Sequence record: PQ303785.1
Direction: 5' to 3' (one strand)
DNA: 64,000 nt
DNA from: Escherichia phage LYE-01
In this document: positions 5,243 through 62,384 of the stretch, piece by piece
How the letters are laid out: every line of letters begins with the position of its first letter
Position numbering within the stretch: the stretch's first letter is position 1
Position numbers and translations under genes: made by a program
The notes under the pieces: generated by a model
Told to the model about the DNA's origin: nothing
What the model saw: only the letters and a program-made list of their open reading frames with translations
Databases searched by the model: none

Positions 5243-5317
5243 GGCCCTGTAGCTGGAAGGTTCAAGCAAGCGACTCATAATCGCCAGATGGTGGTTCAAT
5301 TCCACCCAGGGCCACCA
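5243..5317 (+). tRNA. tRNA-Ile (anticodon CAU, presumably lysidine-modified)
   Basis: acceptor ggccctg/cagggcc, anticodon loop CT-CAT-AA; T4 tRNA-Ile carries CAU. Confidence 0.75.
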
Positions 5318-5326
5318 AATTAATTT

Positions 5327-5413
5327 GGGGAGTTATCCCGTAGAGGTAGCGGTGTGGACTGTAAATCCATTGTCATTGCGACTCGGGTGGTTCGACTCCA
5401 TCACTCCCCACCA
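5327..5413 (+). tRNA. tRNA-Tyr-like (anticodon GUA), class II with long variable arm
   Basis: acceptor ggggagt/actcccc, anticodon stem gtgga/tccat with loop CT-GTA-AA, variable-arm hairpin gtc-attgc-gac resembling bacterial tRNA-Tyr, TTCGACT T-loop, CCA; D-stem imperfect. Confidence 0.6.
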
Positions 5414-5417
5414 ATTT

Positions 5418-5492
5418 GGATGTGTAGCTCAATGGCAGAGCGATCGCCTGTTAAGCGATTGGTTATAGGTTCGAATCCTATCACGTCCGCCA
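5418..5492 (+). tRNA. tRNA-Asn (anticodon GUU)
   Basis: acceptor ggatgtg/cacgtcc, D-stem gctc/gagc, anticodon stem atcgc/gcgat with loop CT-GTT-AA, T-arm atagg-ttcgaat-cctat, CCA. Confidence 0.8.
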
Positions 5493-5496
5493 AATC

Positions 5497-5572
5497 CGAG
5501 GCATAGCTCAGAAGGAAGAGCAAGGACCTTCTAAGTCCTAGGTCGTAGGTTCGATCCCTACTGCCTCGACCA
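5497..5572 (+). tRNA. tRNA-Arg (anticodon UCU)
   Basis: acceptor cgaggca/tgcctcg, anticodon stem aggac/gtcct with loop CT-TCT-AA, CCA. Confidence 0.85.
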
Positions 5573-5588
5573 ATTAAGTGAGGAAAAT

Positions 5589-5939
5589 ATGAAAGGTAAT
5601 GTTTATTTAGTAGTTCATGATTTAACATTCTATTTTAATCACAATGACACTGTTATTTCTGAACGTGTAATTAATTTGCTTTATCAGCATGCAGATTATG
5701 TTTATGTCGAAAACGAATATGGACATTGGCAATTTCTCAAAAATCGTTCATTTGGCTTAGATGATTACGAATATTTTGAACGTAAAGACCTTTTAGATAA
5801 AATTCCGTTATCTACACAATATCAAAATCATAAGTCTTTATATAAATGCCGGTTAATTCGAAATGCTGAATCCGCATATGAAGCAATTGATTTATGGCGT
5901 AAACGTCGTGAACAGGTTGATGCTTTAAAAGAATACTAA
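5589..5939 (+). CDS. hypothetical protein
   Basis: 116-aa ORF with GTGAGGAAAAT SD directly after the tRNA array; no GIY-YIG motif, so not segB-like. Confidence 0.55.
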   Translation: MKGNVYLVVHDLTFYFNHNDTVISERVINLLYQHADYVYVENEYGHWQFLKNRSFGLDDYEYFERKDLLDKIPLSTQYQNHKSLYKCRLIRNAESAYEAIDLWRKRREQVDALKEY

Positions 5940-11832: not shown

Positions 11833-11910
11833 GCCTATTGTCTATACTTATTAGAATATTATACGGACTACCATGTGCCACGGAATGGCCCAACCTAAAA
11901 GAGAAACTAA

Positions 11911-12450
11911 ATGAGAACATTTTTAACTGGTCCTTATCTATCCCTGATGAATGCTTTTACACACCATTCTGATGCTAGAGTAGAAGAAATTTGTAAAAAC
12001 GATTATATCCCACCATTTGAAGACTTACTCAAGCAGTATTGCACACTTCGATTAGATGGTGGCAGACAATCCGGTAAATCAACTGCTGTGACTAACTTTG
12101 CTGCTAATTGGCTGTATGATGGTGGAACAGTTATTGTTCTTTCTAATACTTCAGCTTACGCTAAAATTTCTGCAGGCCACATTAAAAAAGAATTTTCTCG
12201 TTATTCTGGCGATGATATTCGATTCCGCTTATTTACCGATTCTGTCCGTAGTTTTATTGGTAATAAAGGAAGCAAGTTCAGAGGTTTATCGCTTTCGCGG
12301 ATTTTGTATATAATCGATGAGCCTGTTAAATCTCCTGATATGGATAAAATTTACGATATTCATATTGAAACTGTGCGCCACTGTTGCAATAGTAAATGCT
12401 GCATTGGTGGTATTACTCGTCCACAGTTTTTCATAATCGGAATGCAATGA
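11911..12450 (+). CDS. P-loop NTPase-like protein
   Basis: 179 aa; Walker A-like GGRQSGKST, Walker B-like ILYIIDEP, C-terminal CCNSKCC cluster; occupies the position of T4 denV, but no DenV-like sequence is present. Confidence 0.5.
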   Translation: MRTFLTGPYLSLMNAFTHHSDARVEEICKNDYIPPFEDLLKQYCTLRLDGGRQSGKSTAVTNFAANWLYDGGTVIVLSNTSAYAKISAGHIKKEFSRYSGDDIRFRLFTDSVRSFIGNKGSKFRGLSLSRILYIIDEPVKSPDMDKIYDIHIETVRHCCNSKCCIGGITRPQFFIIGMQ

Positions 12451-13147: not shown

Positions 13148-13368
13148 TGGCAAAGATAATTATTGAAGGTTCTAAAGATGTGCTAAATGCTTTCGCCGAG
13201 TGGTTTAGTAATTCAGGCGAACAGCAATTTAATGAAGCATGGAACATGGGTGATATTAGTGGAATTTATCCTACGACAGAAATTTCTGTTCAGGGATATG
13301 GCATTCATGAGCCTATTCGTTTAGTTGAATATGATTTGGGAACAGGTGAGGAAGTAAAATATGATTGA
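13147..13368 (+). CDS. hypothetical protein
   Basis: 73-aa ORF, start overlaps preceding stop. Confidence 0.45.
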   Translation: MAKIIIEGSKDVLNAFAEWFSNSGEQQFNEAWNMGDISGIYPTTEISVQGYGIHEPIRLVEYDLGTGEEVKYD

Positions 13369-14433: not shown

Positions 14434-14979
14434 ATGAGAAAAGCACTACTCGCTGGTCTATTGGCCATTTCAATGATGGCACATAGCTCCGAGCATACTT
14501 TCAGTAATGTCCAACTCGATAACATGCGTTACGCATATCAATTCGGGGAACAATTTTCTAAGGATGGAAAATATAAAACACACAAAAATATCCACAAGAG
14601 TGGATTAGGTCATATAATGGCTGCTATTTTATGGCAAGAAAGCTCTGCCGGAGTTAATTTAAAATCTAAACCAAAGCATCATGCCTATGGAATGTTCCAA
14701 AATTATTTGCCGACCATGCGAGCAAGAGTTAAGGAACTTGGTTATAATATGACCGATGCTGAAATAAAAAGAATGTTGAATAAACGGTCCAATTCAGCTT
14801 CCTGGGCGTACATTGAACTTTCTTATTGGTTAAATATACATAAGGGTGATATAAGAAAGGCAATATCCTCTTATAATTCGGGATGGAATGTTAAAGCAGG
14901 TTCTAAATATGCTTCTGAAGTCCTAGAAAAGGCTAACTACCTTAAAAATAATAAACTACTGGAAATAGTAAATGACTAA
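14434..14979 (+). CDS. secreted lytic-transglycosylase-like protein (vs.1 position)
   Basis: N-terminal signal peptide; SLT-family motifs WQESS, GMFQ and SYNSG. Confidence 0.6.
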   Translation: MRKALLAGLLAISMMAHSSEHTFSNVQLDNMRYAYQFGEQFSKDGKYKTHKNIHKSGLGHIMAAILWQESSAGVNLKSKPKHHAYGMFQNYLPTMRARVKELGYNMTDAEIKRMLNKRSNSASWAYIELSYWLNIHKGDIRKAISSYNSGWNVKAGSKYASEVLEKANYLKNNKLLEIVND

Positions 14980-15313
14980 AATTTTGGTTTTATGTATAGG
15001 ATTAATTTCATTTTCTGCGTTAGCAGATATATCATATTCTGAAGTTAGAGAGTATGTAAACCGTACTGCCGCGGATTATTGTGGGAAAAATAAAGCATGC
15101 CAAGCTGAATTTGCGCAGAAATTAATATATGCATATAAAGACGGAGAAAGAGATAAATCAAGCAGATACAAAAATGATACTTTATTAAAACGATATGCTA
15201 AAAAGTGGAATACCTTAGAATGTTCAGTTGCGGAGGAGAAAGATAAAGCCGCTTGTCATTCAATGGTTGACCGTTTGGTAGATTCTTATAATCGAGGATT
15301 GAGTACTAGATGA
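14972..15313 (+). CDS. hypothetical secreted protein (positional candidate for vs)
   Basis: 113 aa with hydrophobic signal-like N-terminus; name from position only. Confidence 0.4.
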   Translation: MTKILVLCIGLISFSALADISYSEVREYVNRTAADYCGKNKACQAEFAQKLIYAYKDGERDKSSRYKNDTLLKRYAKKWNTLECSVAEEKDKAACHSMVDRLVDSYNRGLSTR

Positions 15314-15789
15314 TTGTAAAATATATCAAGGGCGATATTGTCGCCCTATTTCTTCAAGGTAATATTATTGCGCACGGGTGCAACTGTTTTCATACTATGG
15401 GTTCAGGTGTAGCGGGTCAATTAGCAAGGGCCTATCCTAAAATTTTAGAAATAGATAAAACCACTACCGAGTACGGTTCTCGTGATAAATTAGGCGATAT
15501 GTCTATTGTTTTTAAACATAATCCTACAGGATTTGGTATATGCTATAACCTGTATACACAATACGAACCGGGTCCTAATCTTGATTATGGTGCTTTAGTA
15601 AACTGCATGATAGAATTAAATCTACAGGCAGAGACCCTTTTGTTTAAACCAGTAATTTACATTCCACGCATAGGTTGTGGTATTGCTGGCGGTGATTGGG
15701 ATAAGGTTTCTAAATTAATCGACATGTTTACTCCTGATATTGATTTGATAGTGGTGGATTATGAAAGTACATTACCCGCATCCGTTTGA
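15310..15789 (+). CDS. macro-domain (ADP-ribose binding/hydrolase) protein
   Basis: 159 aa; N-terminal KGDIV, glycine-rich loop MGSGVAGQLARAYP and distal IPRIGCGIAGG match the macro-domain pattern (GDIT ... GGGVxGAI ... ISTGxYG). Confidence 0.6.
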   Translation: MIVKYIKGDIVALFLQGNIIAHGCNCFHTMGSGVAGQLARAYPKILEIDKTTTEYGSRDKLGDMSIVFKHNPTGFGICYNLYTQYEPGPNLDYGALVNCMIELNLQAETLLFKPVIYIPRIGCGIAGGDWDKVSKLIDMFTPDIDLIVVDYESTLPASV

Positions 15790-15973
15790 TCCTAAAAACA
15801 AAGCAGAAATTATTCGTCAATGGGAACGCATTTGCCGTACTAAATGCCCAATTAATAGTCCTCATGATGTAGATAAAGACTATATTGGAACATTCGTTGA
15901 ATATACCTTTATTGATAGGAAAGGTCGTAAACAACATGTAGAAGAATATTGCTTAAAGGTTACATGGTTATGA
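15761..15973 (+). CDS. hypothetical small protein
   Basis: 70-aa ORF. Confidence 0.4.
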   Translation: MKVHYPHPFDPKNKAEIIRQWERICRTKCPINSPHDVDKDYIGTFVEYTFIDRKGRKQHVEEYCLKVTWL

Positions 15974-16176
15974 GCCAAACTAGTATTCTTAAAAATTCCC
16001 ATTGTGAAAAGTGTAAATGGCCTGTTGTTTTTGCTTTATGTAATGATGAAATGGCCTGTGATTTTGACTATTGGTGCTATTGTTCTAATAAAGGATGCAT
16101 CAATCATAAAGGTGAAGGATTTTATTCAGGATTTTATCCTTATCCTGATTTCGTTAAAGAAGGTAAACCAAAATGA
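15949..16176 (+). CDS. cysteine-rich small protein (possible zinc binding)
   Basis: 75 aa with CEKC and several further Cys residues. Confidence 0.45.
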   Translation: MLKGYMVMSQTSILKNSHCEKCKWPVVFALCNDEMACDFDYWCYCSNKGCINHKGEGFYSGFYPYPDFVKEGKPK

Positions 16177-16346
16177 ATAATTTTGAGTTACAATATGAAG
16201 TGTTACGTGAGCTTGATAATTTAATTGAACTCGCTGTTAATAAAGGTTTTGCCATCGGAATTGGTCAAAAAGATACTGATCATTTAACTATGGAAATATT
16301 TAAGCAAAAGCGAATTATTTTAAAACTTCTGGAAATTAATATATGA
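16173..16346 (+). CDS. hypothetical small protein
   Basis: 57-aa ORF; start and stop each overlap neighbours by 4 nt. Confidence 0.35.
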   Translation: MNNFELQYEVLRELDNLIELAVNKGFAIGIGQKDTDHLTMEIFKQKRIILKLLEINI

Positions 16347-16528
16347 GTCTGAGTAAAGAACAAAAAGATAAATTGTTTGAGCTTATCCATGAACTTCTAG
16401 ATGAGCATACAGAAGCAAACACCTTTTATGATGAATACGGCCCGCTATCTCCCGAACACCAGGAAGAATTTGCTGATCGGTTTGATAAGAAAGAAAACGA
16501 ATTAATAGCTTATGTGAATACGCTTTAA
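16343..16528 (+). CDS. hypothetical small acidic protein
   Basis: 61-aa ORF directly upstream of tk. Confidence 0.45.
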   Translation: MSLSKEQKDKLFELIHELLDEHTEANTFYDEYGPLSPEHQEEFADRFDKKENELIAYVNTL

Positions 16529-39199: not shown

Positions 39200-40050
39200 A
39201 GAATTTTAAACTTGACATTAATGATGAATTTTTAATAAAGGAATTAGTTGAAAAATTAGCGTTGAGTGAAGAAGACGCCAAGTCTTACATTAATTTTATT
39301 TCTATGAATTCAACTGTTAAAACTCCAGGTAAAACGGAAGCACACCACGTGCTTCCTAAATCAATATTTCCTGAATATTTAAAATCTACATGGAATTTAG
39401 TTAATTTAAGTCATTTTAATCATTTTAAAGCACACTTCTTATTAGCAAAAGGTAAAAATGGAAAAATGCTAAATGCTTTAAATAGAATGATGTCAGGAAA
39501 AACATATAAAAATTTATCTTTAGCCGAAGTTGATTTAATAGCTGCTGAATATAGTTTTATAAAACAAGATGTAAGTGACACAATATCAAAAAGGCTTCAA
39601 CAGTATTATTCAAATCCGCAAAATAGAAATGCTGCTAGAGAAAGGGCATTAAAATATTTTTCAGTAGCAAAAAATAGGAAAGATAACAAAGAAAGATTAA
39701 ATAATTTTAAAACAAAACAAAAAATTTCAATGGCTTCAAGGGAATGGTTTAATAACGAAGAAAATAAAATTAAACACCAAAAGGCTGTTCGTGCTGCTTT
39801 ATCAAAACCTGAATATAAAATAGCTATATCAAATTCAGTAGCTGCTAGTTGGAAAAATCCGGAGATTAGAAAAGCTCATATAGCATCTAGACGAAAAGGC
39901 TATCATTGGGATAATAAAGATAAATTGTATGAATTGTGGATATCATATAATCGTCCTAAACATGTGATGTTTAGGAAAATGTTAGTTAAGAATGGATATC
40001 CAATAGAGGCTTCATTACAGGCTTTAGTTAAAGAATTTTCTTCATTGTGA
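39196..40050 (+). CDS. HNH homing endonuclease-like protein (Mob-like)
   Basis: 284 aa; HNH core EAHHVLPKSIFPEYLKSTWNLVNLSHFNHFKAH; GTG start. Confidence 0.65.
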   Translation: MKNFKLDINDEFLIKELVEKLALSEEDAKSYINFISMNSTVKTPGKTEAHHVLPKSIFPEYLKSTWNLVNLSHFNHFKAHFLLAKGKNGKMLNALNRMMSGKTYKNLSLAEVDLIAAEYSFIKQDVSDTISKRLQQYYSNPQNRNAARERALKYFSVAKNRKDNKERLNNFKTKQKISMASREWFNNEENKIKHQKAVRAALSKPEYKIAISNSVAASWKNPEIRKAHIASRRKGYHWDNKDKLYELWISYNRPKHVMFRKMLVKNGYPIEASLQALVKEFSSL

Positions 40051-40065
40051 ACAATTGGATACAAA

Positions 40066-41748
40066 ATGAAATCATTTAAACTTAATAGAGTAAAATATAA
40101 AAATATAATGTCAGTTGGTCAAAATGGAGTTGACATTCAATTAGATAAGGTTCAAAAAACTCTTATTACTGGACGAAATGGCGGTGGTAAGTCTACTATG
40201 TTAGAAGCCATCACATTTGGGCTTTTTGGCAAGCCATTTCGTGATGTAAAGAAAGGTCAATTAATAAACAGCACAAATAAGAAAGAACTTTTAGTTGAAC
40301 TGTGGATGGAATATGATGAGAAAAAGTACTATATCAAAAGAGGACAAAAACCAAACGTTTTCGAAATCACCGTTAACGGTACACGTCTTAATGAATCTGC
40401 CAGCAGTAAAGATTTCCAAGCAGAATTTGAACAGCTTATCGGAATGTCATATGCCAGTTTCAAGCAGATTGTTGTCCTTGGTACAGCAGGGTATACCCCT
40501 TTCATGGGTTTGTCGACCCCTGCGCGAAGAAAGCTTGTGGAAGACCTGCTTGAGGTAGGAACATTAGCTGAAATGGATAAGCTTAATAAAGCACTAATAC
40601 GTGAATTAAATTCACAAAACCAAGTGCTTGATGTTAAAAAAGATAGTATTATCCAGCAAATTAAAATATATAATGATAACGTTGAACGTCAGAAAAAATT
40701 AACTGGTGATAACCTTACTCGTCTGCAGAATATGTATGATGATTTGGCGAAAGAAGCTAGAACGTTAAAATCGGAAATAGAAGAAGCTAATGAAAGATTA
40801 GTTAATATTGTTTTGGATGAAGACCCGACTGATGCATTTAATAAAATCGGTCAAGAAGCATTTTTAATTAAATCAAAAATTGACTCGTATAATAAAGTCA
40901 TTAATATGTATCACGAAGGTGGATTATGTCCAACCTGTTTGTCACAATTAAGTTCCGGTGATAAAGTTGTTTCTAAAATTAAAGATAAAGTTTCTGAATG
41001 CACGCATTCGTTTGAACAGCTTTCAACACATCGTGATAATTTAAAAGTTCTCGTTGATGAATACCGAGATAATATTAAAACCCAGCAGACGTTGGCGAAT
41101 GATATTCGCAATAAAAAGCAATCCTTAATCACGACGATAGATAAAGCTAAAAAGGTTAAAGCGGCTATAGAAAAAGCATCATCCGAGTTTATTGACCATG
41201 CTGATGAAATAGCACTGCTTCAAGAAGAACTTGATAAAATTGTTAAGACAAAAACTAATTTAGTAATGGAAAAATACCACAGAGGAATTTTGACTGACAT
41301 GCTCAAAGATTCTGGTATTAAAGGTGCTATTATTAAAAAGTACATTCCATTATTTAATAAGCAGATTAACCATTATCTTAAAATAATGGAAGCGGATTAT
41401 GTGTTTACATTAGATGAAGAATTTAATGAGACAATTAAATCCCGTGGTCGCGAAGATTTTAGTTATGCTTCATTCAGTGAAGGTGAAAAAGCACGAATTG
41501 ATATTGCTCTTTTATTTACTTGGCGTGATATTGCTTCTATCGTATCTGGTGTTAGTATTAGTACATTAATTCTTGATGAAGTGTTTGATGGGTCATTTGA
41601 TGCCGAAGGTATTAAAGGTGTAGCGAATATTATAAATTCAATGAAAAATACTAATGTTTTTATAATTTCGCATAAAGACCACGACCCGCAAGAATATGGT
41701 CAGCATCTTCAAATGAAGAAAGTTGGTCGGTTTACTGTAATGGTTTAA
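40066..41748 (+). CDS. 46: recombination ATPase subunit gp46 (Rad50-like)
   Basis: 560 aa; Walker A GRNGGGKST, long coiled coil with CPTC zinc hook, C-terminal signature and D-loop. Confidence 0.95.
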   Translation: MKSFKLNRVKYKNIMSVGQNGVDIQLDKVQKTLITGRNGGGKSTMLEAITFGLFGKPFRDVKKGQLINSTNKKELLVELWMEYDEKKYYIKRGQKPNVFEITVNGTRLNESASSKDFQAEFEQLIGMSYASFKQIVVLGTAGYTPFMGLSTPARRKLVEDLLEVGTLAEMDKLNKALIRELNSQNQVLDVKKDSIIQQIKIYNDNVERQKKLTGDNLTRLQNMYDDLAKEARTLKSEIEEANERLVNIVLDEDPTDAFNKIGQEAFLIKSKIDSYNKVINMYHEGGLCPTCLSQLSSGDKVVSKIKDKVSECTHSFEQLSTHRDNLKVLVDEYRDNIKTQQTLANDIRNKKQSLITTIDKAKKVKAAIEKASSEFIDHADEIALLQEELDKIVKTKTNLVMEKYHRGILTDMLKDSGIKGAIIKKYIPLFNKQINHYLKIMEADYVFTLDEEFNETIKSRGREDFSYASFSEGEKARIDIALLFTWRDIASIVSGVSISTLILDEVFDGSFDAEGIKGVANIINSMKNTNVFIISHKDHDPQEYGQHLQMKKVGRFTVMV

Positions 41749-56610: not shown

Positions 56611-56642
56611 GCGTCGTCCTCCTTTAAATTAAATATTTATCG

Positions 56643-56660
56643 CAAATTTTACAAAATTTG
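56643..56660. promoter_or_regulatory. perfect palindrome CAAATTTT-AC-AAAATTTG in divergent promoter region
   Basis: 8-2-8 inverted repeat abutting the -35 of the plus-strand promoter and lying upstream of the minus-strand gene. Confidence 0.4.
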
Positions 56661-56689
56661 TTTACTTTCTCAGCTTGCTGTGGTATTAT
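56660..56689 (+). promoter_or_regulatory. T4-type early promoter
   Basis: GTTTAC, 18 nt, TGGTATTAT upstream of ORF 56715. Confidence 0.55.
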
Positions 56690-56714
56690 AAAATAAACTG
56701 CTGAGGATAATATA

Positions 56715-58054
<1,340 letters not shown>

Positions 58055-58114
58055 CTGCTTATATATTCAAATGATATAATTATTTAACTTATTAATGAAT
58101 TGAAAGGAAAAATA

Positions 58115-61135: not shown

Positions 61136-61161
61136 AGCTTCTGAAGTATATGGAGGCTATC

Positions 61162-61785
61162 ATGATTATTAATCTTGCAGATGTTGAACAGTTATCTATA
61201 AAAGCTGAAAGCGTTGATTTTCAATATGATATGTATAAAAAGGTCTGTGAAAAATTTACTGACTTTGAGCAGTCAGTTCTTTGGCAATGTATGGAAGCCA
61301 AAAAGAATGAAGCTCTTCATCGGCAGTTGAATAAAATCGTTAAAAAGCATTTAACTGAATCACCTTATCAGTTATATCGTGGTATATCAAAATCGACAAA
61401 AGAACTCATTAAAGATTTACAAGTTGGAGAAGTGTTTTCAACGAACAGAGTAGATTCATTTACTACTAGTTTGCATACAGCGTGTTCTTTTTCTTATGCT
61501 GAATATTTCACTGAAATAGTACTTCGCTTAAAAACTGATAAAGCTTTTAATTACTCTGACCATATCAGCGATATTATACTTTCTTCTCCTAATACTGAGT
61601 TTAAGTATACATATGAAGATACTGATGGATTAGATTCAGAACGTACTGATAACTTAATGATGATTGTGCGTGAACAAGAATGGATGATTCCAATTGGAAA
61701 GTATAAAATAACTTCTATTTCAAAAGAAAAATTACACGATTCATTTGGAACATTTAAAGTGTATGATATTGAGGTAGTTGAATGA
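61162..61785 (+). CDS. modB: ADP-ribosyltransferase ModB
   Basis: 207 aa from ATG at 61162; modB-modA-srd-dda synteny; T4 ModB is 207 aa. Confidence 0.75.
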   Translation: MIINLADVEQLSIKAESVDFQYDMYKKVCEKFTDFEQSVLWQCMEAKKNEALHRQLNKIVKKHLTESPYQLYRGISKSTKELIKDLQVGEVFSTNRVDSFTTSLHTACSFSYAEYFTEIVLRLKTDKAFNYSDHISDIILSSPNTEFKYTYEDTDGLDSERTDNLMMIVREQEWMIPIGKYKITSISKEKLHDSFGTFKVYDIEVVE

Positions 61786-62384
61786 AATATTCAGCAATGC
61801 AATTAAAAGATTTTAAAATCAAATCAATGAATGCATCGGTGCGTGCTTCTATTCGTGAAGAATTACTTTCTGAAGGATTTAATTTATCTGAAATTGAACT
61901 TTTAATTCATTGTATTACTAATAAGCCAGACGATCATTCTTGGTTAAATGAAATAATCAAATCTCGTTTGGTTCCAAACGATAAACCTCTTTGGAGAGGT
62001 GTTCCAGTTGAGACTAAACAGGTGTTAAATCAAGGAATTGATATTATTACATTTGATAAAGTAGTATCAGCTTCATATGATAAAAATATAGCTCTGCATT
62101 TTGCTTCTGGATTAGAATACAACACACAAGTTATTTTTGAATTCAAAGCTCCTATGGTATTTAATTTTCAGGAGTATGCTATAAAAGCTCTACGTTGTAA
62201 AGAATATAGTCCGAGTTTTAAGTTTCCGGATAGCCATCGCTATCGTAATATGGAATTAGTTTCAGATGAACAAGAAGTAATGATACCAGCTGGAAGTGTA
62301 TTTAGAATTGCAGATAGATATGAGTATAAAAAGCATTCAACATACACTATCTATACTCTTGACTTTGAAGGATTTAATCTATAA
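61782..62384 (+). CDS. modA: ADP-ribosyltransferase ModA
   Basis: 200 aa, the T4 ModA length; paralogous to the preceding ORF. Confidence 0.75.
   Translation: MKYSAMQLKDFKIKSMNASVRASIREELLSEGFNLSEIELLIHCITNKPDDHSWLNEIIKSRLVPNDKPLWRGVPVETKQVLNQGIDIITFDKVVSASYDKNIALHFASGLEYNTQVIFEFKAPMVFNFQEYAIKALRCKEYSPSFKFPDSHRYRNMELVSDEQEVMIPAGSVFRIADRYEYKKHSTYTIYTLDFEGFNL

What the first reader, a model, noticed from the sequence alone, without database searches (positions are those of the whole stretch)
15310..15789. Macro-domain protein between vs and tk
The 159-aa product has the macro-domain hallmarks: N-terminal KGDIV, a glycine-rich phosphate-binding loop MGSGVAGQLARAYP and a distal IPRIGCGIAGG loop. 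Macro domains bind or hydrolyse ADP-ribose conjugates. In a phage that also encodes ModA and ModB ADP-ribosyltransferases, it could tune phage-directed ADP-ribosylation or reverse host ADP-ribosylation defences (DarT-like DNA modification, or ADPR-derived signals).
Basis: partly seen in the sequence, partly recalled or inferred. Interest (0 to 1): 0.55.

Follow-up and report, generated by a model that had tools for sequence, protein, structure and literature searches.

The report
T4 tk.4-type macrodomain, anti-DarT2 gene
This gene is a diverged copy of phage T4's known tk.4 (adfM) macrodomain gene, which most likely strips ADP-ribose off phage DNA to defeat the bacterial DarTG2 defence, so the finding is correct but already known.

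Summary

The window is a T4-like (Tequatrovirus) genome. The gene is the syntenic orthologue of T4 tk.4, with 58% aa identity, while its neighbours are 93-99% identical to T4. A 2025 preprint named T4 tk.4 adfM because deleting it makes T4 sensitive to DarTG2.

- **Not DarG-type.** DarG's catalytic Lys is replaced by an invariant Gln84. SCO6735 and BT1257 have the same Gln; in SCO6735 it is essential and ADP-ribosyl-thymidine DNA hydrolysis has been shown.
- **Nearest characterised relatives are phosphatases.** At 39% identity they are phage ADPR-1''-phosphate phosphatases (Adpp) linked to NARP1. No NARP1 genes exist in the window or in a close relative's complete genome.
- **Swapped-in allele.** The gene body is divergent inside T4-identical flanks.

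The gene is known and ordinary. The biochemistry of this phage clade has not been tested.

The parts
15310..15789 (+). Macrodomain gene of 159 aa, the syntenic orthologue of T4 tk.4 (adfM)
15373..15384 (+). Codons for H22-G23-C24-N25. This is the ribose-binding Asn with its preceding His, and it aligns with SCO6735 H24-V25-C26-N27, Gary Adpp H24, Poa1p H23 and PhiKZ AdfM N23.
   Evidence: H22 and N25 are invariant in 60 homologues. Alignment. Mutational data for the equivalent residues come, and from the PDB entry titles.
15397..15414 (+). Gly-rich loop 1 (M30-G-S-G-V-A35), the phosphate-binding loop
   Evidence: G31 is nearly invariant; G33 and A35 are invariant. The loop aligns with the MG.G.A loop of every ALC1-like macrodomain compared.
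15547..15564 (+). N80-L-Y-T-Q84-Y85 motif. Gln84 occupies the position of the catalytic Lys of TARG1 (K84) and DarG (K80), and of the essential Gln85 of SCO6735.
   Evidence: N80, Y82 and Q84 are invariant. The profile-to-PDB alignment puts 'tq' on TARG1 'TK'. MAFFT alignments. At this column 70 sequences have Gln and 4 have Lys. SCO6735 Q85A is inactive.
15664..15699 (+). Gly-rich loop 2 (P119-R-I-G-C-G-I-A-G-G-D-W130), the distal diphosphate/ribose loop. A126 sits where TARG1 has its catalytic D125.
   Evidence: P119, G122, G124 and W130 are invariant; alignments.
15434..15780 (.). Divergent core of the gene relative to T4, with 37-72% nt identity in 60-nt windows. The flanks are 93-100% identical, so this is an allelic replacement rather than general divergence.
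   Evidence: Sliding nt identity; per-gene aa identities.
14972..15313 (+). The vs gene (valyl-tRNA synthetase modifier) directly upstream. Its stop overlaps the macro start (ATGA), implying one transcript and possibly coupled translation.
   Evidence: 94.8% to T4 Vs; PHROG 1256.
15761..15973 (+). The tk.3 orthologue downstream. It overlaps the last 29 nt of the macro gene, whereas the overlap in T4 is 4 nt.
   Evidence: 92.9% to T4 Tk.3; PHROG 2008.
15329..15347 (+). An 8-bp G+C-rich hairpin followed by a T-rich run, inside codons 7-13 of the gene (terminator-like)
   Evidence: The stem is identical in T4, T6, JE01, Nami and fPS-2. It is annotated 'terminator' in Yersinia phage fPS-2.

Best explanation
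The gene encodes a single-domain macrodomain ADP-ribosyl hydrolase of the ALC1-like class (TARG1, DarG, SCO6735, Poa1p). It is this phage's version of T4 tk.4/adfM.

Proposed mechanism:
- The gene is transcribed with the early/middle vs-tk gene block.
- The protein binds the ADP-ribose that the host toxin DarT2 attaches to N3 of thymidine in single-stranded phage DNA.
- It hydrolyses the thymine-C1'' bond, releasing free ADP-ribose and restoring a replicable template.
- Catalysis does not use DarG's lysine. Gln84, held in place by Asn25, positions the distal ribose for attack by water, as proposed for SCO6735. The two Gly-rich loops hold the diphosphate.

Shown here: the macro fold, the class assignment, the Gln-for-Lys active site, orthology and synteny with T4 tk.4, and the absence of NARP1.

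Taken from the literature: the T4 tk.4 knockout becomes DarTG2-sensitive, and the Gln-type macrodomain SCO6735 cleaves ADP-ribosyl-thymidine in DNA.

Inferred: that this 58%-identical allele has the same substrate and the same role.
For: - **Orthology.** The gene is 58% identical to T4 Tk.4 over the full length and sits in the same slot between vs and tk.3.
- **Function of the orthologue.** tk.4 was the only significant HIDEN-SEQ hit on a DarTG2 host, and a clean deletion sensitised T4. Independently, T4 lacking adfA and adfN stayed DarTG2-resistant, which predicted a further factor.
- **Active site.** H22, N25, N80, Y82, Q84, G122, G124 and W130 are invariant in 60 homologues. Q84 aligns with SCO6735 Q85 and N25 with N27. 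In SCO6735, Q85A is dead and N27S nearly dead, and the enzyme cleaves ADPr-dT DNA and rescues cells from DarT. BT1257, the best PDB match, is a close SCO6735 homologue (E 3e-54).
- **NARP1 is absent.** No Adps or Namat homologue was found in the window or in the complete genome of the 93-99% identical phage JE01 (best tblastn E 0.37-1.2).
Against: - No enzyme of the T4-type phage clade has been assayed. The T4 evidence is genetic only, and the preprint itself calls enzymatic removal 'likely'.
- This allele is only 58% identical to the tested T4 protein.
- The closest biochemically characterised relative is Vibrio phage Gary Adpp (39% identity, E 1e-25), an ADPR-1''-phosphate phosphatase. DarG is much more distant (26%, E 1e-8).
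- The protein is acidic (pI 5.0). It lacks SCO6735's DNA-contacting lysines (K34 and K89 align to S32 and G88) and its extended mobile loop.
- It misses the NCBIfam DarG equivalog by a wide margin (27.8 bits against a cut-off of 250).
Confidence: 0.6

Rival explanations
1. Its relevant activity is ADP-ribose-1''-phosphate phosphatase, as for yeast Poa1p and phage Adpp. It would convert the ADPR-1P made by RES-type NADases (aRES) into ADPR.
For: - It is 35-39% identical (E 1e-21 to 1e-26) to the NARP1-linked macro proteins, including the assayed Gary Adpp.
- tblastn with Gary Adpp recovers about as many phage records with the same organism profile (2,704 against 2,777), including tk.4 genes of T4-like phages.
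- H22 matches Adpp H24, whose H24A mutation abolishes function, and Poa1p H23, for which an H23A mutant was crystallised.
- T4 tk.4 has long been annotated 'A1pp phosphatase motif'.
- In a rough NJ tree the T4-like clade nests inside the Gln-type family, with NARP1-linked members branching basally.
Against: - ADPR-1P phosphatase helps only when coupled to NARP1 (Adps plus Namat). Neither gene is present in the window or in JE01's complete genome.
- In Gary and GRLPWR the macro gene sits between Adps and Namat. Here it sits between vs and tk.3.
- The only phenotype reported for tk.4 is on DarTG2.
- The two activities are not mutually exclusive.
Confidence: 0.15
2. It neutralises DarT2 mainly by binding the toxin (interaction-inhibition) rather than by hydrolysis. 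The sharp allelic divergence would then reflect matching to different toxin variants.
For: - Catalytically dead SCO6735 Q85A, DarG K80A and TARG1 K84A all inhibit DarT in vitro, SCO6735 most strongly.
- The gene body is replaced while the active-site motifs and flanks are kept, a pattern seen in arms-race interfaces.
Against: - Strict conservation of the catalytic-site residues across distant homologues argues that the enzyme activity is under selection.
- The protein has no equivalent of DarG's C-terminal DarT-binding domain; it is a 159-aa single domain.
Confidence: 0.08
3. It erases or tunes the phage's own protein ADP-ribosylation by Alt, ModA and ModB.
For: ModA/ModB-like genes are in the same window (61150-62384), and an Alt gene is present in the close relative JE01.
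Against: - Alt, ModA and ModB modify arginine.
- From established knowledge: Arg-ADP-ribose is removed by DraG/ARH-type hydrolases, and ALC1-like macrodomains are not known to cleave it.
- The genes are 46 kb apart and show no conserved linkage.
- The T4 screen found tk.4 conditionally required only with DarTG2.
Confidence: 0.04
4. It acts on another ADP-ribose conjugate, such as ADP-ribosylated RNA or an ADPR-derived immune signal.
For: Macro domains act on many 1''- and 2''-linked ADPr substrates, and sequence alone rarely fixes the specificity.
Against: There is no genetic or contextual support. SCO6735, the Gln-type relative, was reported within one paper both inactive on 5'-phosphate-linked ADPr-RNA/DNA and 'active on RNA phosphate ends', and it was inactive on 2'-OH-linked RNA ADPr, so even that lead is unclear.
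Confidence: 0.06

Closest known systems
T4 Tk.4 / AdfM (NP_049723; anti-DarT factor Macrodomain, HIDEN-SEQ preprint 2025)
   Same: It occupies the same slot between vs and tk.3. It has a similar length (155 against 159 aa), the same invariant motifs (HGCNC, NLYTQ, PRIG.GI..G.W) and the same 5' hairpin.
   Different: It is only 58% identical although the neighbouring genes are 93-99% identical. Loop 2 reads GCGIAGGDW here and GAGIGKGNW in T4. The C-terminus is 4 aa longer and overlaps tk.3 by 29 nt. This allele has not been tested.
SCO6735 (S. coelicolor, PDB 5E3B) and BT1257 (PDB 2FG1/2AFC): Gln-type ALC1-like macrodomains
   Different: Identity is only 25-29%. The window protein has a shorter loop after the Gln, lacks the DNA-contacting K34 and K89, and is acidic (pI 5.0 against 9.5). 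It has family-specific invariant D49 and Y82.
Adpp (Vibrio phage Gary KNV71_gp137) and other NARP1-linked phage macro proteins
   Same: These are the closest characterised sequence relatives (39% identity, E 1e-25). tblastn with either protein recovers about as many phage records with the same organism profile (2,777 and 2,704). The catalytic His and the Gln motif are shared.
   Different: Adpp is embedded between Adps and Namat, and its shown activity is ADPR-1''-phosphate to ADPR. This phage has no NARP1. Adpp also has a longer loop after the Gln.
DarG macrodomain (T. aquaticus 5M31, M. tuberculosis 5M3I)
   Different: DarG's catalytic Lys80 is Gln84 here, and the position of His22 is Asn in DarG. 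There is no C-terminal DarT-binding domain and no adjacent darT gene. The NCBIfam DarG score is 27.8 bits against a cut-off of 250.
PhiKZ gp104 'AdfM' (Cell Rep 2026)
   Same: It is a phage macrodomain that counters DarTG2. It was shown to remove DarT2-made ADP-ribose from DNA.
   Different: It is not an orthologue: BLASTP E is 0.016 against the window protein and 0.07 against T4 Tk.4. It is DarG-like, with the FPTK lysine. Two unrelated macro clades now carry the same name.
Yeast Poa1p (PDB 6LFQ)
   Different: Poa1p is a eukaryotic enzyme that clears a tRNA-splicing by-product. Only the N-terminal half aligns well by sequence.

Membership tests
Macro domain (Pfam PF01661) | Profile score above Pfam's gathering cut-off | tested here: met
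   33.1 bits against 22, E 5.8e-8, covering profile positions 2-117 of 118.
Macro domain (Pfam PF01661) | Three-layer alpha/beta/alpha macro fold | tested here: met
Macro domain (Pfam PF01661) | Gly-rich phosphate loops and the ribose-binding Asn conserved in orthologues | tested here: met
   N25, G33, G122 and G124 are invariant; G31, G127 and G128 are at least 90% conserved in 60 homologues.
ALC1-like macrodomain class (TARG1 / DarG / SCO6735 / Poa1p) | Closest structural neighbours belong to this class, separated from MacroD, viral and PARG types | tested here: met
DarG antitoxin (NCBIfam NF048014) | Equivalog score at or above the curated cut-off | tested here: not met
   27.8 bits against a cut-off of 250.
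DarG antitoxin (NCBIfam NF048014) | Catalytic Lys80 (TK motif) | tested here: not met
   Gln84 occupies this position and is invariant in the family. The DarG motif 'TK-G-G (K80)' is taken.
DarG antitoxin (NCBIfam NF048014) | C-terminal DarT-binding domain and an adjacent darT gene | tested here: not met
   The protein is a 159-aa single domain and its neighbours are vs and tk.3.
Gln-type subclass (SCO6735 / BT1257) | Gln at the TARG1-K84 position, with the Asn that locks it | tested here: met
   Q84 and N25 align with Q85 and N27; their functional importance is taken.
Gln-type subclass (SCO6735 / BT1257) | Extended mobile loop and basic DNA-binding surface (K34, K89) | tested here: not met
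   The loop after the Gln is 6-7 residues shorter. S32 and G88 occupy the lysine positions. pI is 5.0 against 9.5.
T4 Tk.4 / AdfM orthologue group | Full-length homology and a conserved position between vs and tk.3 | tested here: met
   58% identity over 155 aa with no gaps; flanking genes 93-99% identical to T4.
T4 Tk.4 / AdfM orthologue group | Loss of the gene sensitises the phage to DarTG2 | not testable with these tools
   Shown only for T4 itself.
Adpp (NARP1-AP phosphatase) | Homology to assayed Adpp, with the catalytic His | tested here: met
   39% identity, E 1e-25 to Gary Adpp; H22 aligns with H24.
Adpp (NARP1-AP phosphatase) | Encoded in or next to a NARP1 operon (Adps plus Namat) | tested here: not met
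   No Adps or Namat homologue in the window or in the complete JE01 genome (best E 0.37-1.2). Compare the GRLPWR operon.
Adpp (NARP1-AP phosphatase) | ADPR-1''-phosphate phosphatase activity | not testable with these tools
   This needs an enzyme assay.
PhiKZ-type AdfM (gp104) | Significant full-length similarity and a DarG-like TK active site | tested here: not met
   BLASTP E 0.016 over 33 residues; gp104 has FPTK and matches DarG at E 9e-25.

The most novel reading that the evidence does not exclude
The Gln-type phage macrodomains (T4 Tk.4, this allele, Adpp) may be one enzyme family that hydrolyses several 1''-linked ADP-ribose adducts by a lysine-independent mechanism. The adducts would include thymine-N3 in DNA and 1''-phosphate. 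The cassette-like replacement of the tk.4 gene body inside otherwise T4-identical DNA would then reflect selection for different host toxin variants. If so, the window-type and T4-type alleles would give different defence-escape spectra, for example against different DarT2 homologues.
Probability: 0.2. Interest if true: 0.5.

Novelty: already known. Interest (0 to 1): 0.3.

Why it matters
The result places a routinely mis-annotated T-even gene in the right functional box. The gene has been labelled "phosphatase", "RNase III inhibitor" and "hypothetical protein"; it is most likely an orphan antitoxin-like eraser of DarT2 DNA ADP-ribosylation.

Three points matter for people working on these systems:
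- The T4-type "AdfM" is not a DarG-type enzyme. It has Gln, not Lys, at the catalytic position, so DarG-based mechanistic assumptions and inhibitors may not transfer to it.
- It belongs to the same sequence family as the ADPR-1''-phosphate phosphatases (Adpp) of NARP1-AP operons. Sequence alone cannot tell the two proposed activities apart.
- The name AdfM is now attached to two unrelated macrodomain clades.

None of this changes the overall picture. The gene is a known, common anti-defence gene, and about 41% of myoviruses encode a macro domain.

Tried and rejected
- **Bacterial gene context.** I looked at one family member (P0096, Pelagimonas) to see whether Gln-type homologues sit next to DarT or NARP genes. 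Its neighbours are unrelated housekeeping genes, so this was uninformative.
- **NARP1 search.** I searched the window and the complete JE01 genome with the Adps and Namat proteins of phage GRLPWR and found nothing. This argues against the NARP1-AP reading.
- **Intragenic hairpin.** I tested 15329-15347 for unusual stability. The 76-nt segment has z = -1.28, with 23 of 200 shuffles folding as well, so it is not significant on energy alone. It is nevertheless conserved and is annotated as a terminator elsewhere.
- **T6 allele.** I checked phage T6 hoping for an indirect phenotype for the window-type allele. T6 carries the T4-type allele (468-bp gene with a T4-like 5' end), so it says nothing.
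- **Model geometry.** I could not inspect active-site geometry because the predicted coordinates are not exposed to the scripting tool.

Full report
**Observation.** An ATG-started ORF occupies 15310-15789 on the + strand and encodes 159 aa. It scores above threshold on Pfam Macro (33.1 bits against 22, E 5.8e-8). It matches PHROG 335, labelled "phosphatase", at E 1.6e-71.

**Source of the window.** The region is 98-99% identical at nucleotide level to many Tequatrovirus (T4-like) phages such as JE01, FL33 and EcNP1/Nami. The window is collinear with JE01 positions 14331-80505 at 93-99% identity. The + strand is the direction of T4 early transcription.

Comparison with the T4 reference annotation fixes the gene order as regB, vs.1, vs, this gene, tk.3, three small ORFs, tk. 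The gene is therefore the positional counterpart of T4 tk.4 (NP_049723, "phosphatase; contains A1pp phosphatase motif"). It is 58% identical to T4 Tk.4 over 155 residues without gaps. ModA/ModB-like genes are indeed in the window, at 61150-61785 and 61782-62384.

**What is already known.**
- A 2025 preprint (HIDEN-SEQ, 10.1101/2025.11.20.689424) screened a T4 transposon library on a DarTG2 host. tk.4 was the single significant hit, and a clean deletion sensitised T4 to DarTG2. The authors renamed the gene adfM and call enzymatic removal of ADP-ribose from DNA "likely".
- Earlier work had shown that T4 lacking adfA and adfN remains DarTG2-resistant, which predicted another factor.
- A separate 2026 paper gave the same name, AdfM, to PhiKZ gp104. 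That macrodomain was shown biochemically to remove DarT2-made ADP-ribose from DNA.

**The protein is not DarG-like at the active site.**
- In the 60-member alignment, H22, G23, N25, C26, G33, A35, D49, N80, Y82, Q84, P119, G122, G124 and W130 are invariant.
- Profile-to-PDB and MAFFT alignments place Q84 on the catalytic lysine of TARG1 (K84) and DarG (K80). They place A126 on TARG1 D125.
- DarG's defining motif is TK-G-G, and K80 is essential.
- PhiKZ gp104 has the DarG-type FPTK. It matches DarG at E 9e-25 but matches the window protein only at E 0.016. The two "AdfM" proteins are therefore not orthologues.
- NCBIfam's DarG equivalog scores 27.8 bits against a cut-off of 250.

**A Gln at this position is a known, active variant.** SCO6735 of Streptomyces coelicolor has Gln85 at the equivalent position. 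Q85A abolishes its activity, and Asn27 locks Gln85 in place. The enzyme cleaves ADP-ribosyl-thymidine in DNA at least as well as DarG and rescues cells from DarT (PMC9411070). BT1257, the best PDB match of the window protein, is a close SCO6735 homologue (E 3e-54). In the window protein, H22-G23-C24-N25 aligns with SCO6735 H24-V25-C26-N27, and Q84 aligns with Q85. This gives a concrete lysine-independent mechanism for thymidine de-ADP-ribosylation.

There are differences from SCO6735. The loop after the Gln is shorter. The DNA-contacting K34 and K89 are not conserved. The protein is acidic, with pI 5.0 against 9.5.

**A serious rival from the literature.** A January 2026 preprint (10.64898/2026.01.28.702374) describes phage macro proteins called Adpp. 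They are encoded between the NARP1 genes Adps and Namat, and they dephosphorylate the ADPR-1''-phosphate produced by the aRES defence. The Gary H24A mutant is inactive.
- These proteins are the nearest characterised relatives of the window protein: 35-39% identity and E 1e-21 to 1e-26, against 26% and E 1e-8 for DarG.
- tblastn with Gary Adpp recovers about as many phage records with the same organism profile, including tk.4 genes of T4-like phages (2,704 against 2,777).
- One NARP1-linked phage (Aeromonas LAh_9) appears both in their table and in my hit list.
- In a rough NJ tree the T4-like clade nests within the Gln-type family, NARP1-linked members branch basally, and DarG plus gp104 form the outgroup. 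At the Q84 column, 70 sequences have Gln and 4 have Lys.

Sequence alone therefore cannot separate "AdfM (T4-type)" from "Adpp". Context can. The phosphatase is useful only together with NARP1. tblastn with the Adps and Namat proteins of phage GRLPWR finds nothing in the window or in the complete 169-kb genome of JE01 (best E 0.37-1.2). I therefore rank the anti-DarT2 role first (0.6) and the phosphatase role second (0.15). The two activities could also coexist in one enzyme.

**Allelic structure.** The neighbours are almost T4-identical at protein level: regB 99.3%, vs.1 99.4%, vs 94.8%, tk.3 92.9%, tk 99.5%. This gene is 58%. Nucleotide identity to T4 is 100% up to about 15343. It falls to 37-72% across 15434-15780 and recovers to 93-97% in tk.3. 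A second replaced patch covers 15961-16526, where T4's tk.2 and tk.1 are substituted by three other small ORFs.

About 312 phage records carry the window-type allele at 90% aa identity or more. T4 and T6 carry the other type. This is a cassette-like exchange. It fits either ordinary T-even mosaicism or selection at an anti-defence locus, and I could not distinguish the two.

**Other readings.**
- Erasing Alt/ModA/ModB marks is unlikely. Those enzymes modify arginine. From established knowledge, that linkage is handled by DraG/ARH-type hydrolases rather than macrodomains. There is also no linkage or phenotype.
- Stoichiometric inhibition of DarT2 is possible as an added effect, because inactive SCO6735, DarG and TARG1 all inhibit DarT in vitro. 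The invariant catalytic residues argue that the enzyme activity is under selection.

**Verdict.** The finding is correct and its favoured interpretation is supported, but the gene is a known and common one. Macro domains occur in about 41% of myoviruses. This is T4 tk.4 in a divergent allelic form that is already present in hundreds of database genomes.

The residual open question is biochemical. Which 1''-linked ADP-ribose adducts do the Gln-type phage macrodomains hydrolyse, and do the allele types differ in specificity?

Noticed in passing
window 15329-15347 (tail to about 15357): A perfect 8-bp G+C-rich hairpin (AGGGCGA-TAT-TGTCGCCCT) followed by a T-rich run lies inside codons 7-13 of the macro gene. 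The stem is identical in both allele types (T4, T6, JE01, Nami, fPS-2), and the site is annotated 'terminator' in Yersinia phage fPS-2. Its folding energy is not unusual (z -1.28). It could attenuate read-through from vs, or it could simply mark the recombination boundary.
   Followed up: partly
window 15961-16526: This is a second patch with no real similarity to T4, between tk.3 and tk. T4 has tk.2 and tk.1 here. The window has three small ORFs (15970-16176, 16173-16346 and 16343-16528; PHROGs 2306, 3452 and 653, all of unknown function). Only the last resembles T4 Tk.2, at 54% identity.
   Followed up: partly
window 15745-15773: A sigma-70-like promoter match (TTGATA-17-TACATT) sits inside the 3' end of the macro gene, just upstream of and overlapping the tk.3 start. 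A 'predicted early promoter' is annotated about 20 nt upstream of this site, partly overlapping it, in phage fPS-2.
   Followed up: no
window 61150-61785 and 61782-62384: Two tandem ModA/ModB-like ADP-ribosyltransferase genes (PHROG 832, E 1.9e-41 and 1.9e-33) lie 46 kb downstream of the macro gene.
   Followed up: partly
literature (T4 tk.4 and PhiKZ gp104), relevant to window 15310-15789: The name AdfM has been given independently to two macrodomain proteins that are not orthologues. T4 Tk.4 is Gln-type and Poa1p/Adpp-like. PhiKZ gp104 is Lys-type and DarG-like. BLASTP between them gives E 0.07.
   Followed up: yes
window 56620-58102, also 5314-5939 and 39212-40075: These stretches have no counterpart at the collinear position of the close relative JE01. 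JE01 has homing-endonuclease genes near two of these junctions, so they are probably variable mobile-element or small-ORF insertions.
   Followed up: no
window 11902-12447 and 13196-13321: The vs.8 and vs.5 counterparts align to T4 only from residue 38 and residue 17 respectively. Their 5' ends therefore differ from T4.
   Followed up: no
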